DNA of 64,000 nt, taken from Trypethelium eluteriae (lineage: Eukaryota). The position numbers and the translations under genes were made by a program. Below the pieces are notes generated by a model, which saw nothing but the letters and a program-made list of their open reading frames with translations, made no database searches and was not told the origin of the DNA. The stretch lies in contig JAVECL010000025.1 in NCBI GenBank assembly GCA_051942245.1, positions 1 through 64,000 on the forward strand, written 5' to 3'. Below are positions 25,972 through 30,918 of this stretch, piece by piece (positions within the stretch are counted from its first letter, which is position 1; each line of letters opens with the position of its first letter).

Positions 25972-26853
25972 TTAGTTCTGAGAGTTGCTCTGAGCCTCCT
26001 TCTTCGCGGCAATTTGAGCTTCAGTGTGGTGAGGCTCGCGCTTTTGCTGGTTGTTTCCCTGGGCGGCTTCCTTCGCCGCAATCTGAGCTTCAGTATGATG
26101 CGCCTCTGGGGCACGCTTGTCGACCCAAGATCCGAATTCATCCTCGGTGCTATCCCAAGGGCCAAATTCATCCGGTGCCTGGCGAGCCTTGTTGTTGTTT
26201 TAATTGGAGCGACCGGCTGCCTCCTTGGCGGCTATTTGAGCCTCCGTGTGGTGAGGCTCCGGGTCACGTTTGTCGACCTCAGACTCAAAGCCATCAAGAG
26301 TTTGACGAGCATGGTGTTGAGACTTGCCAGCAGCTTCCTTGGCAGCGATCTGGGCCTCCGTGTGGTGAGGCTCCGGATCGCGCTTGTCTACCCAAGATCC
26401 GAACTCGTCTTCGGTGCTATCCCAAGCACCAAATTCGTCCGGCGCCTGGCGGGCCTTGTTGTTGTTGGAATGGCCGGCTGCTTTCTTGGCGGCGATCTGG
26501 GCTTCTGTGTGGTGAGGCTCCGGATCGCGCTTATCTACCCAAGACCCGAACTCGTCTTCAGTGCTGTCCCAAGGGCCAAATTCGTCCGGCGCCTGACGGG
26601 CCTTGTTATTGTTCGAATGACCGGCTGATTTCTTGGCGGCGATCTGGGCTTCCGTATGGTGAGCCTCAGGGTCACGCTTGTCGACCTCTGACTCAAAGCC
26701 GTCAAGAGTTTGACGGGTTTGGTGTTGAGACTTGCCAGCAGCCTCCTTCGCAGCGATCTGCGCTTCGGTGTGATGGCGGGCCTCAAGATGGACAGGAGTT
26801 GCGCATACACCAGCCGCAATCACGCTGAGAATAAGTGCTTCGGAAAAGCGCAT
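25972..26853 (-). CDS. Kex2-processed repeat protein (KEP), putative dikaritin RiPP precursor; in-frame TAA at 26200-26202 truncates it to 217 aa, and the frame continues 75 more codons
   Basis: Signal peptide MRFSEALILSVIAAGVCA; 7x HHTEAQIAAK, 3x QAPDEFG[P/A]WDSTEDEFGSWVDKR, 2x QTLDGFESEVDKR. KR sites are followed by DP-EP, DP-EA, AP-EA or EP dipeptides. Adjacent to two DUF3328 genes. Confidence 0.85.
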
Positions 26854-27798
26854 ATTTGCTGAAGATAACGATGAAGAATAATAGTAAAAAATTGAATAAA
26901 CGATAGACCAGCTTAGGTAGATGTAGTCGAAAGGAACGAAAGATCAACGAAATGAGTGGATCAACGAATAGACTTGGCTTACAGAAAAGTAAAATCCGTC
27001 GTAATTGCCCGCTCTTATAGAAACTTAAAGAGCTCTTCTGGACCCATTAAAGTCGCATTGCATTTAATTGACGCTCTCCTTCCAGACAGCGTACCTTGGA
27101 CCTCATGGCCGAAACGTCGACGGGAAAATTATCGCAACTCATCCAGTTTCACGGCATCTATCTATGAGCGGTTTGTTAGTATCAGCGAGCCGCTCGTGCT
27201 GGGCGCTTCGAGTTGATACCTAGCTCTGTGTGCCGAGAGGTGTTCAAAAACTTGAGCCATGTCTCCGTCGGAAGTGGTAATGTAGAGCGGCCAAGGAGTG
27301 TGCGGCTAGACTTACCTCCAGAACCAACAGAGAGCTCTTCTAAGAGGATCGCTTACAGGGTGTGGCTACGCGATGCGGCGATGGTAGTCGTACGTGGAAC
27401 GTGTCGGGGACACAGCGACTACCGTAGGGCTAGGCCAGTAGGAGCGCGAACCCTGCCTGGCGGGGCGGGCGAACGGCGCGGTGGGGGCGGTACTCTAGGG
27501 GCACAGCTCTACGATAATCCTGGAACATGTTCGATTTCGAAAGTCCTCCTGGTCCACGCCGCGCAAAATTTAACAGCGCTTCGTTACAGCAGGCTTTCCA
27601 ATGGCCGCGTGCCGTATCTTCCGTAGAGTACGGAGTACAACAGGTAGAGTAATGTAGTCTTGCTGATCGACTACGGTATGGAGTCCTCCAGTCAACAACC
27701 CTGATCGCACTTTCTTACCCTGCCTTCTTCTCAACCACTTCATTCGCTTGATTTGTTCTCGCAAGAGCTGTGCCTTTGAAAGAAAGCTTTACAGGACA

Positions 27799-28731
27799 AT
27801 GGATTCAAATTATCAGCAAATACCTACTAGCGAAAAGCTACTGTGGGAAACCACTGATGTCGAGCACCATACTACAAACGATGGTTCTCCGTTCAGATCC
27901 ATGCGGCAGAAGACGCTGCAATCTTGGCTCGCATCTCATGTCATCTGGATGTTGCATGCTTTTCTGCTTTCTGTATCTTTCTATATGTTTATTACAGCTG
28001 CAAATATCAATTCAACTTTGCGGCACGTCCAGGATTACTCGGCATGGTGTAAGTCCCGTATGCTGTCCATAGACTCTGGACTGAACATCCCTAGCTCCAG
28101 CAGCAGAGGCAGTGAATTATGAGAGCGTCAGGTTCAACATAAGTACTTCAAACAACCCCTTTGTGGGTGCCGGACCGGAAATCGACAGGGCATGGCGGGA
28201 GATATCTTATGATAGTCAGTTTCCTAGCCTGCTCCTGATCCTACAATACTGATTCCTTGTAGTGGGCGATCAGATGATCTCAAAAGATGGACTGTCCATA
28301 CTGGGCATGCCCGAAGACTCTTTGCAAGTCAGACACCCAGAGACGGGTGAGGAGGGCTATCGTGTTGGGATGCAGGTCTTCCATCAACTGCATTGTATCA
28401 ACCTACTGCGGCGCGTTACGTACAAGGAACATTATGAGCCACTCGGTGGTGAATTTGCGAAGGGACCGAAGGCTTTACAGGCTCACACTGGTAAGATGAT
28501 CGGCAGTTCGAGCATGCGGCCAAAGCTAACAGATGAGCAGACCATTGCCTCGAGGTGCTGAGATTAAATGCTCAGTGTCATGCTGACATTGGCGTTTTCA
28601 CATTCTATATGGTACCTGGGGATCCTCTGGCTTGGCCGCAGCTCGACTCAGATCATGTGTGCCGCAACTTTGACGGTATATTGGACTGGGCTGTTGAGCA
28701 TTCTGTAGGTAACATGGAAGTCCTTCAATAG
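27799..28731 (+). CDS. DUF3328 / UstYa-family oxidase 1 (4 exons)
   Basis: Introns 28049-28094, 28215-28262, 28491-28540. N-terminal TM helix; VFHQLHCINLLRR and AHTDHCLEVLR (double HxxHC), QCHAD, HVCRNFDGILDW. Confidence 0.9.
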
Positions 28732-29974
28732 ACAGCATTGCTGTATAGTCTCTTAATTGCTTGAAGCGCAATGAAATGAACATAAATCGTTAGAAACCAC
28801 AGCGGCACACCGACTTCCAACGTGAGCCCTACGACGTACTCAGGATTCCGTCTCAGCAACGCATGCCGCGATGTTAGCCACCGCCTCCCCATCACTGGGA
28901 ATGCTGTTCCCGTCAAGGGGTTTCATCTTGATGTGTGTTCGTTGCAAATGGTTGTCGAGGCTCTGTCTGCGACGGTACTTTTGCGACGTGCGTAGGCAGG
29001 GATAGCAAATTTACCTTGTTGACCTTTTATCAATGGCCTACACGATCTAGGCACGGTCATTACAAGCGTCCATGTCTGGAACAGGAAGTCTAGCTATTGC
29101 CACGGGAAAGATCAAGATAGATTGCATATCATCCTTGATATTTCCTGATCTGCTGCAACTTGTGTCAACTTGGACTAGTTTCACTTGTCAGTGCTCCAAG
29201 CTCAACAAACGATTCGGAGGCGAAAGACGTCAATTGTCAAGAGGAAACTTTTCGCGAAGTCTCTCAGGCTAAACTTGCCTGAACATGCTCAGCGTGGCGG
29301 CCAGGGAAGAATAACCGCGAATTGACAGGGGTTGAGAGTTTGGAAATCGACACACAGATCCATCATCGACGCCACGATGTAGAGGAGTTCGCAACTCAAG
29401 ACTTCATGAATACACCGTACATGGCAGTCGGATAGAAAACGCAATATTCTGATCTTGTTGGCAGCTCCTCGTATTCAGTCTCTCGCCTGTCTACTGATAC
29501 CCAAAACATTCAAAATTTTCCGACGATGCTCCCCACCATAGATCGGCACACGATTCTAAGCGCTGCCCAACAGTAGAGATCTTTTCATTCTATCGACTCA
29601 TCTTGCAACAATCGACATGTTCGACATATAGATTACATGCGTGCAGACGTAAATGCCGCGTTGAGCGAATTACGCGGTTCTTTGCGTACGTTTTGGATGT
29701 TCGGCTCCCTGAGACGCTCGCAAAACACGGTCACGCCCCACAGGTTCGCAATCCCAAGTCGCTAACCGCTGGTCTGCACGCAATGCGAACGAATACCTAC
29801 ATGGCGAAACCGTCACGTCGTACGATCGGATGGCGATTCGCCAAGACCAGATCATATGCTCTCTGCGTGCTCTCTCGTAGTCAATTCGATTGAGGTATCG
29901 TTTCATCTCCATTTTGCAACCGTATATTTCCACTTTTCTCATCTTTCATTCATTTGGCTACTCACAATACAACG

Positions 29975-30918
29975 ATGGGAGGCTCCAGATCACACCTTTA
30001 TGAGGATTCCGATGATGAGTCCGATACGCTTGCAACAGACTCTATCCACTCGATGGAGAAGATTTCGCTTAGAGATCACGATCAAGAGGGGAACTATCGC
30101 CATAGGAGAGCGATCAGCCAGAGACATAACTCTCTCCTCAACTGGTTACGATGGGGTATCGTAGTAGCTTTGCAAGCAATTATCATTACTCTATTATGCG
30201 TCAGGCCAAAAGCAGAGATGCGCGATCTCCTTGACACCGAAACCGGGGCTGATATTAATGGCCTCTATCCCACAGGTACGGTTTTGTATGCCCCAAAGAA
30301 TTGCAGCAGCTCTAACAGCTATAGTGGAACATGAGTACAAACGTTTAAAATTCGAGGAAGATCTTTACATGCCAAACATGACGTCTCTAAATGATAGGGA
30401 CGAAGTACGCCGCCGATGGGATAAGCTTCTGCCTCGTAAGTCACCTTAGAGAAAGGAGTTGAGACTTGTAGCTAACGTTTCGTAGGAGGTAGTGGGAGCG
30501 TTGCTATCTCCGACTATAAGAAGCATCCGCTGTTAGGCGAACCGATTGCAGACGATCCAATCCGGACCGGGCCTTTGTTTGAAGCTAGTTGGACGCATGC
30601 GCTCCATTGCGTAGGTGATGCCGATCCCCAGGTCTTCGCCAGTGTAACTAATCTCATCAGCTCTACTACTCAGTCGATCAATATCATCAGCTTGTTCTAA
30701 AGGGTCCCACCGGTGAGGAAAATACTCACCACGCTTCTCACTGTTTCGAGTATTTGCGGACGAGTCTCCTCTGCAATCTTGATATGACTTTGGAAGGGTC
30801 GTACTCAGCCAATCGTGAGAGTGGTGGACAAGCACATGTTTGCAGAAACCGAGATCAAGCGGTAAAGTGGATCGAAGACAGACGAGTCGACGAGCTTCAA
30901 GATATCGTTGGATCATGA
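29975..30918 (+). CDS. DUF3328 / UstYa-family oxidase 2 (4 exons)
   Basis: Introns 30276-30324, 30436-30485, 30611-30660. TM helix; WTHALHCLYY and HHASHCFEYLRTSLLCNLDMTLEG (double HxxHC), HVCRNRD..W. Confidence 0.9.

What the first reader, a model, noticed from the sequence alone, without database searches (positions are those of the whole stretch)
25972..30918. Compact dikaritin-type RiPP cluster: KEP precursor plus two DUF3328 oxidases, with cores I do not recognise
A secreted KR-delimited repeat precursor is transcribed divergently from DUF3328 gene 1 (~945-bp shared intergenic region), followed by a second, dissimilar DUF3328 gene; both keep the double HxxHC motif. Established: precursor plus DUF3328/UstYa is the hallmark of ustiloxin, phomopsin, asperipin-2a and victorin clusters, where these enzymes cross-link or oxidise core residues. 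Here the candidate cores are Tyr-free, Trp-containing FGPW/FGAW/FGSW in an acidic context (TEDEFGSWVDKR resembles the ED-core-xD-KR layout of UstA/PhomA). No tyrosinase, methyltransferase or transporter is adjacent. Inference: a minimal pathway to a new Trp-crosslinked peptide.
Basis: partly seen in the sequence, partly recalled or inferred. Interest (0 to 1): 0.82.

Follow-up and report, generated by a model that had tools for sequence, protein, structure and literature searches.

The report
Conserved fungal His-His peptide cluster
This lichen fungus carries a widespread three-gene set that most likely cuts a secreted repeat protein into short His-His-headed peptides and oxidises them with two copper enzymes; the matching gene in grey mould is already known to be needed for normal spore germination, which gives a ready way to find the unknown product.

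Summary
The three genes are real: a secreted repeat precursor divergent from two intact DUF3328/UstYa genes. It is not unrecognised: 6 of 6 homologs looked up are KEP type #6 (G-3) of Umemura 2020, where 57 of 64 members have a DUF3328 gene nearby. All 54 homologs carry HHTEAQIAAK; 12 lack the Trp motifs, yet such Trp-free precursors keep both enzymes in the same layout. In 247 of 248 copies only X-Ala/X-Pro dipeptides separate His-His from the last basic residue, a Ste13 signature. The Trp unit is a conserved optional second cassette. The Botrytis member is BcCGF1, published without any domain; its knockout germinates late, makes less ROS and is rescued by cAMP. Best reading: a Kex2/Ste13-released, DUF3328-oxidised His-His peptide acting on the producer's own development. 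No product, modification or receptor is shown. Scan look-ups found this on no other DNA.

The parts
26200..26853 (-). KEP precursor reading frame, 217 aa to the in-frame stop; five His-His units, two Trp units, two acidic Trp-free units
   Evidence: 54 homologs
26776..26853 (-). Putative signal peptide and short pro-region ending in LEAR (LxxR-type site)
   Evidence: sequence read directly; no signal-peptide predictor was run; LxxR as a Kex2 motif from PMC8528282 passages
26746..26775 (-). His-His unit 1 (HHTEAQIAAK)
26674..26712 (-). Acidic Trp-free unit 1 (spacer-like)
26632..26661 (-). His-His unit 2
26527..26595 (-). Trp unit 1 (FGPW plus FGSW)
26485..26514 (-). His-His unit 3
26380..26448 (-). 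Trp unit 2 (FGAW plus FGSW)
26338..26367 (-). His-His unit 4
26266..26304 (-). Acidic Trp-free unit 2
26224..26253 (-). His-His unit 5
26200..26202 (-). In-frame TAA at codon 218
   Evidence: unchanged in the contig of run X1
25972..26199 (-). Open tail behind the stop: Trp unit 3 (26113-26181) and His-His units 6 and 7 (26071-26100, 26002-26031); ends like the C-terminus of the close homolog P0007
26854..27798 (.). 945-bp divergent intergenic region
   Evidence: no 8-mer shared with the three matching regions of L033, L037, L041
27799..28731 (+). DUF3328/UstYa gene 1; exons 27799-28048, 28095-28214, 28263-28490, 28541-28731; 262 aa; HxxHC at aa 164 and 198
29975..30918 (+). DUF3328/UstYa gene 2; exons 29975-30275, 30325-30435, 30486-30610, 30661-30918; 264 aa; HxxHC at aa 175 and 203

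Best explanation
A conserved three-gene secretory-pathway peptide module, KEP type #6 (G-3). The precursor enters the ER, Kex2 cuts after KR and after single Arg sites, and a Ste13-type dipeptidyl aminopeptidase strips EP/EA/DP/SP/AP dipeptides until it reaches His-His. This frees peptides of about 20 residues that start HHTEAQIAAK. The two lumen-facing, copper-dependent DUF3328 enzymes each make one oxidative change (cross-link, hydroxylation or desaturation) in that His-His unit, which is the substrate shared by all members. The secreted product most likely acts on the producer itself, upstream of cAMP and ROS, to promote spore germination and early development. The Trp unit is an optional second cassette released from the same precursor. 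Shown here: the genes, the linkage, which unit is universal, the processing signature, and that BcCGF1 belongs to the family. Inferred: the cleavage itself, that the enzymes act on this precursor (about 0.8), that the His-His unit is their shared substrate (about 0.7), and the self-signal role (about 0.45).
For: His-His unit in 54 of 54 homologs, its first 10 positions 96-100% invariant over 247 copies; Trp unit in 42 of 54. Trp-free precursors keep both enzymes: L037 and L041 in the window's order and orientation; BCON_0204g00160/170/180 and the B. cinerea QC760 accessions KAK8902414/12/11. 247 of 248 copies preceded only by 0-n X-Ala/X-Pro dipeptides; 26 of 27 distinct non-empty linkers conform, against a mean of 6.2 and a maximum of 13 in 5000 within-linker shuffles. 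All 21 pairs of the window's 7 His-His copies differ at 2-8 synonymous and 0 non-synonymous codons. The DUF3328 protein CctR is a membrane-anchored, luminal, O2- and copper-dependent enzyme that needs HxxHC(x)nHxxHC (PMC12435403); both motifs are kept here. All four coding-region BcCGF1 primers translate into Botrytis members of this family; the authors' best hit PQE13889.1 is type #6; the gene 2 ortholog is BCIN_16g01800, two locus numbers from BCIN_16g01820. The knockout germinates late, conidiates less, makes less ROS and is rescued by cAMP (PMC7214349).
Against: No peptide, modification or receptor has been observed. Linkage is not absolute: L039 has a His-His precursor and no DUF3328 hit within about 10 kb on either side, and 7 of 64 type-#6 KEPs lack one within 15 genes. 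In the one Botrytis infection table that could be searched, BCIN_16g01820 is listed as up-regulated and 16g01800 and 16g01810 are not (10 of 22 files not searched). The knockout is also sensitive to salt, H2O2, SDS and Congo red, which would fit a wall or redox role as well as a signal. About half of the sites before His-His are single Arg, not KR/RR (120 of 244). The genome holds 39 UstYa matches, so these enzymes are common here. The phenotype comes from a Trp-free member in another class of fungi and may not carry over to this lichen fungus.
Confidence: 0.55

Rival explanations
1. One reading: the enzymes cross-link or oxidise the FGxW cores into a Trp-containing macrocycle, and the His-His stretch is only a leader or recognition sequence.
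For: The Trp unit is highly conserved: D, F, G, W and D of the first half and F, W of the second are invariant in 71 copies. Its ED-core-xD-KR layout resembles the EDYXI frame of ustiloxin and phomopsin precursors (PMC6339444). Gene 2 orthologs of the Leotiomycete rows form their own clade (100/100) with a different loop before the second HxxHC, so substrates could differ between lineages.
Against: 12 of 54 precursors have no Trp unit, and such precursors keep both enzymes; next to their His-His unit lie only variable Lys/Ala tails and acidic spacers such as DVEER. The dipeptide signature sits in front of His-His, as for a mature N-terminus. No third enzyme accompanies the Trp unit in the window or in L033.
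Confidence: 0.15
2. The His-His peptide is a secreted copper (or other metal) binder or redox agent rather than a signal; the DUF3328 enzymes tune its ligands, and the germination and ROS defects follow from metal or redox imbalance.
For: A free N-terminal His-His is a good Cu(II) ligand set (recalled, not tested). The knockout makes less ROS and is sensitive to H2O2. Near-invariance across five classes fits a fixed chemical partner.
Against: cAMP rescue places the defect upstream of signalling. No metal transporter or reductase recurs beside the locus in the window, L033, L037 or L041. Dipeptide trimming is the alpha-pheromone pattern (PMC9769878).
Confidence: 0.15
3. The product is an outward-acting toxin or effector, as for ustiloxin, phomopsin or victorin.
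For: Characterised KEP plus DUF3328 products are mostly toxins (PMC9233826). BcCGF1 is up 156-fold early in infection and its loss lowers virulence. The released peptides are mildly cationic (mean net charge about +2).
Against: The knockout's defects show without a host, on slides and plates. The family is found in lichen fungi, black yeasts, Talaromyces and Trichoderma as well as pathogens. No exporter or resistance gene recurs at the locus.
Confidence: 0.1
4. The peptides stay linear; the DUF3328 genes act on something else and are merely linked.
For: L039 and 7 of 64 catalogued members lack a DUF3328 neighbour. DUF3328 enzymes also act on non-ribosomal peptides.
Against: The same two orthologs sit in the same order and orientation across several classes while the other neighbours change; no other biosynthetic gene is shared with the window.
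Confidence: 0.05

Closest known systems
KEP type #6 (G-3) of Umemura 2020 (PMC7329392; sections 6, 7, 9 read, Table S2 rows searched; the logo in Fig. 5 not visible)
   Same: Di-histidine motif, DUF3328 neighbours in 57 of 64, 20 genera that overlap our hits; 6 of 6 homolog accessions looked up are type 6.
   Different: A computed class only: no product, enzyme pair, sub-cassette analysis or function was given in the parts read. The window's genus group is not in its genus list.
BcCGF1 (BCIN_16g01820) of Botrytis cinerea (PMC7214349; abstract, passages, sections 21-24 and 38, supplements 3 and 22, hits in 12)
   Same: Same precursor family, next to orthologs of both enzymes.
   Different: Botrytis members have no Trp unit. 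The paper reports no domain and never uses the word repeat. The B05.10 protein sequence itself was not seen here; membership rests on primers, accession order and the stated best hit.
Dikaritins: ustiloxin (UstA, UstYa, UstYb, UstQ), phomopsin, asperipin-2a, victorin (passages of PMC9233826 and PMC10540207)
   Same: Multicore Kex2 precursor with co-located UstYa/b homologs; two DUF3328 genes as in ustiloxin.
   Different: No Tyr in the precursor, no tyrosinase or methyltransferase nearby, dipeptide-trimmed N-terminus, about 20-residue units, near-invariant core across classes. Victorin shows that Tyr is not obligatory.
Epichloecyclin cluster (gigA, gigB, gigC, kexB)
   Same: Compact KEP plus DUF3328 cluster; DUF3328 needed for cyclic product.
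   Different: One DUF3328, Tyr-based ring, own methyltransferase and kexin.
Ascomycete alpha-type pheromone precursors
   Same: Kex2 sites followed by X-Ala/X-Pro dipeptides removed by Ste13; probable self or kin signalling.
   Different: No MF_alpha match; pheromone genes are almost never next to DUF3328 genes (3 exceptions). Neurospora POI2, a ustiloxin-type KEP needed for development, is the known precedent for a developmental role.
CctR (DUF3328 hydroxylase, PMC12435403; parts 1-2 of 3 read)
   Same: Single N-terminal membrane helix, double HxxHC.
   Different: Acts on a non-ribosomal peptide; no sequence comparison with CctR was made here.

Membership tests
Kex2-processed repeat protein (KEP) | Repeated units separated by Kex2 sites | tested here: met
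   Four KR sites before the stop, six in the whole frame, plus single-Arg sites; 147-nt tandem period
Kex2-processed repeat protein (KEP) | N-terminal signal peptide | tested here: inconclusive
   Hydrophobic N-terminus seen by eye; no predictor available; BcCgf1 is predicted secreted by its authors
KEP type #6 (G-3) | Homology to catalogued type-6 proteins | tested here: met
   EXJ76930, EED15881, KIX96925, OAP59441, TGO62602, RFU35021 are hits (E 8e-96 to 7e-10) and all type 6
KEP type #6 (G-3) | Di-histidine motif and DUF3328 gene within 15 genes | tested here: met
DUF3328/UstYa (PF11807) | Pfam match, double HxxHC, N-terminal membrane helix | tested here: met
   helix 34-69 in the model of P0165
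DUF3328/UstYa (PF11807) | Binuclear copper, disulfide-linked dimer, O2-dependent C-H oxidation | not testable with these tools
   known for CctR; no solved relative found
Dikaritin RiPP | Multicore Kex2 precursor co-located with UstYa/b homologs | tested here: met
Dikaritin RiPP | Tyr in the core for the aryl-ether ring (ustiloxin, phomopsin, asperipin) | tested here: not met
   no Tyr in the precursor; Tyr after the first His-His in only 6 of 54 homologs
Dikaritin RiPP | Clustered tyrosinase (ustiloxin, phomopsin) | tested here: not met
   no match in the frames scanned from 21.4 to 37 kb
Dikaritin RiPP | Cyclic, modified product | not testable with these tools
   needs LC-MS/MS and NMR
alpha-type pheromone precursor | Ste13 dipeptides after Kex2 sites | tested here: met
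alpha-type pheromone precursor | MF_alpha profile, no DUF3328 neighbour | tested here: not met
   ESM Atlas MF_alpha cluster scores only 0.81, a lead at most

The most novel reading that the evidence does not exclude
One of the most widespread KEP-DUF3328 families makes a histidine-cross-linked (or otherwise oxidised) His-His-Thr peptide hormone, conserved almost letter for letter across five classes of Pezizomycotina, that fungi secrete to trigger their own spore germination through cAMP and ROS; BcCGF1 is its unrecognised precursor, and lineages such as this lichen fungus release a second, Trp-containing peptide from the same polyprotein.
Probability: 0.3. Interest if true: 0.85.

Novelty: new variant of a known kind. 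Interest (0 to 1): 0.64.

Why it matters
Nearly all characterised KEP-DUF3328 products are Tyr-linked toxins, and what cyclic KEP peptides do for the fungus is an open question. This family has a Tyr-free His-His core with pheromone-like trimming, so it points to DUF3328 chemistry not yet described. Tying it to BcCGF1 joins a computed family without function to a published knockout without mechanism: wild type against the existing mutant by LC-MS would identify the product directly. If it is a conserved germination signal, its maturation or receptor would be a target for blocking spore germination.

Tried and rejected
Intron explanation for the TAA: the only GT-AG spans I could see around it by eye are 26 and 35 nt and break the frame (sequence); rejected. 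Assembly error: run X1 shows the same letters there; X1 may not be independent. Expression: no RNA holder listed. Solved relatives: none by sequence or by fold; the gene 1 model was weak (pLDDT 58, pTM 0.40). Complex prediction of enzymes with a repeat unit: tool not available, nothing folded, no verdict. Shared promoter words: six 7-mer strings (three words with their reverse complements) and no 8-mer common to four intergenic regions; uninformative. Second precursor copy in the genome: none found. Further conserved cluster genes: none shared with the window. Trees: gene 1 backbone largely open (13 of 28 inner branches well supported), so I make no claim on whether the Trp unit is ancestral or on transfer. 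ESM Atlas: best score 0.89, recognition below threshold. Motif search in papers gave one irrelevant hit. The asperigimycin paper was not held; what I know of it is recalled and not used as evidence. PMC12048977 and PMC7099791: abstract and outline only; not used.
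Full report
Observation. The window is contig C25 of a 29-Mb fungal assembly. The precursor starts at 26853 on the - strand and gene 1 at 27799 on the + strand, 945 bp apart. Gene 1 (262 aa) and gene 2 (264 aa) each splice from four exons, keep two HxxHC motifs and one N-terminal hydrophobic helix, and share only 27% identity over 98 aa. Their exon frames match PF11807. 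The models agree with annotated proteins of Viridothelium virens at 99.2% over 262 aa and 100% over 238 aa, and with Bathelium and Bogoriella proteins at 87-94%, so the host belongs with these lichen-forming Dothideomycetes. Of 61 further frames of 60 aa or more between 21.4 and 37 kb only one matched Pfam, a TPR repeat of the neighbouring PNP_UDP-NB-ARC-TPR gene.

The precursor. It holds three kinds of unit: seven His-His units (HHTEAQIAAK), three Trp units (FGPW or FGAW followed by FGSW) and two acidic Trp-free units. An in-frame TAA at codon 218 (26200-26202) ends the protein after five His-His and two Trp units. The single contig of run X1 differs at 15 letters and lacks one 147-nt repeat but shows no difference at the stop. 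The tail behind the stop has no amino-acid change in its His-His copies, and X1's two differences there are synonymous; the stop is therefore recent or leaky, which I cannot decide. All 21 pairs of His-His copies differ at 2-8 synonymous and no non-synonymous codons, and the Trp copies at 5-11 synonymous and 0-1 non-synonymous codons: both units are under purifying selection.

The family. A search with the 217-aa protein gave 54 homologs (only the 8000 best candidates were scored) from Eurotiomycetes, Dothideomycetes, Lecanoromycetes, Leotiomycetes and Trichoderma. Six of six accessions looked up in Table S2 of Umemura 2020 (PMC7329392) are KEP type 6 with a DUF3328 gene nearby. That paper lists the type as G-3: 64 proteins, 20 genera, 57 with DUF3328, marked by a di-histidine motif. 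So the family and its linkage were catalogued; in the sections read no product or function is given.

Which unit is the core. All 54 homologs carry the His-His unit, with its first ten positions 96-100% invariant over 247 copies. 42 carry an FGxW motif (37 both halves, 5 only the FGSW half) and 12 carry none. A separate HMMER search with the Trp unit alone over 1.84 billion representatives gave 20 proteins; 19 have the His-His motif by pattern and the last has a one-letter variant. Of 11 metagenome loci, four have about 10 kb on the promoter side: L033 (both units), L037 and L041 (His-His only) show precursor, gene 1 and gene 2 in the window's order and orientation with both HxxHC motifs in gene 2; L039 (His-His only) shows no DUF3328 hit. 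L038 and L040 (near-identical, His-His only) show gene 1 and then end; five loci are too short. Locus tags agree: Bogoriella M1820_003694/5/6 and Varicellaria MMC14_001557/6/5 (with Trp unit), Botryotinia convoluta BCON_0204g00160/170/180 (without), and pairs in Icmadophila, two Fonsecaea, Cladophialophora, Ciborinia and three more Botrytis or Botryotinia records. Orthologs stay 50-76% identical across classes. Both enzymes are thus kept where there is no Trp to act on; the simplest shared substrate is the His-His unit. This is inference from co-retention, not a shown reaction.

Processing signature. Between the last basic residue and His-His, 247 of 248 copies have nothing (68) or only X-Ala/X-Pro dipeptides. 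Counting each distinct non-empty linker once, 26 of 27 conform, against a mean of 6.2 and a maximum of 13 in 5000 shuffles within linkers. This is the Ste13 motif of alpha-pheromone precursors (PMC9769878 passages; PMC6339444 section 9), and it puts His-His at the mature N-terminus. 124 of 244 upstream sites are KR or RR and 120 are single Arg, 87 of these with Val, Leu or Ile at P4, in line with the wider LxxR motif (PMC8528282 passages). The released units are mostly 19-22 residues with mean net charge near +2. The Trp unit has Gln five residues before the first Phe in 70% of 71 copies, which could give a pyroglutamate end as seen in other KEP peptides; this is a guess.

Link to a published knockout. 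The gene 2 ortholog in B. cinerea B05.10 is BCIN_16g01800, ATZ58381.1; the strain's type-6 KEP is ATZ58384.1; another strain shows the same spacing (KAK8902411, 12 and 14 for gene 2, gene 1 and precursor). A paper search for the neighbouring locus numbers found BCIN_16g01820, BcCGF1 (PMC7214349). Its four coding-region primers translate to NILLAV, KASKNQ, AGKSKGQ and EQREAHHT, each found in Botrytis members of this family, and the authors' best hit PQE13889.1 is type 6. I did not see the B05.10 sequence itself, and Fig. S3 gave only its legend. The authors report a 255-aa predicted secreted protein with no domain, 156-fold up at 24 h of infection; the knockout conidiates less, germinates late, is stress-sensitive, makes less ROS, and is rescued by 50 uM cAMP. 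Against co-regulation, the two enzyme genes are absent from the up-regulated table (10 of 22 files not searched).

Is the link in print? A motif search found nothing relevant. Twenty papers name BcCGF1 (listing); in the three whose passages I read it is not treated as a repeat precursor, and one review calls it an oxidoreductase. None of the 30 listed of 453 papers pairs CGF1 with Kex2 or RiPP; searches showed no study of this family's product in their listings. Subscription journals are not covered, so this is weak.

Mechanism. Kex2 and Ste13 release His-His-headed peptides in the Golgi; two luminal copper enzymes of the CctR type (PMC12435403) each oxidise the unit once; the product is secreted. 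Which bond is made I cannot tell; a His-linked cross-link or a hydroxylation are the simplest options. The phenotype without a host, the cAMP rescue, the pheromone-like trimming and the near-invariance across lifestyles favour a self-directed developmental signal, with Neurospora POI2 as precedent.

Verdict. It works like a dikaritin cluster and is a member of catalogued KEP type #6, but fails the Tyr and tyrosinase features of the ustiloxin kind. The locus alone is one more member of a computed family. What is added here is the identification of the universal core, the processing signature and the tie to a knockout, which makes the product directly findable. Interest 0.64; novelty: new variant of a known kind.

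Noticed in passing
window 25054-25243 (-): tRNA-Arg(UCU) gene cut by two GT-AG introns (25226-25168, 59 nt; 25151-25100, 52 nt). ARAGORN finds nothing in the raw window but calls tRNA-Arg(tct) with a 7-nt intron once both are removed. Already reported by the scan as e1-7860446.
   Followed up: partly
window 26200-26202 and 25972-26199: In-frame stop followed by 75 open codons with no amino-acid decay; recent truncation or read-through is undecided.
   Followed up: partly
L037:3378-4436 and L041:14512-16347: An MBOAT_2 acyltransferase gene (53% over 364 aa) lies near both Trp-free clusters but not near the window's; possible accessory enzyme or plain microsynteny.
   Followed up: partly
L041:6438-7502: A 355-codon frame on the opposite strand between gene 1 and gene 2, with no Pfam match.
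   Followed up: partly
L041:9624-11137, L042, L043: Some Trp-free precursor genes appear to have introns at the same point just after the His-His motif in several repeats (frames break after TEAQI).
   Followed up: no
protein P0013: A homolog whose Trp unit has gained two cysteines four residues apart, a possible disulfide.
   Followed up: no
L025 (G000:C254:778-4023): A second, unrelated KR-delimited repeat precursor with Tyr-containing units (six copies of one 7-mer) lies among UstYa matches on contig C254 of the same genome.
   Followed up: no
window 32820-36207 (-): Fungal NLR-like gene (PNP_UDP, NB-ARC, TPR) in three separate frames, 1.9 kb from gene 2; introns or breaks not resolved.
   Followed up: no
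window 20630-21106 (-): Nis1-family secreted protein gene (E 3e-38).
   Followed up: no
gene 1 tree: Trichoderma gene 1 groups with Eurotiomycete and some Dothideomycete rows (95/91) rather than with the Fusarium rows; not tested for transfer.
   Followed up: no
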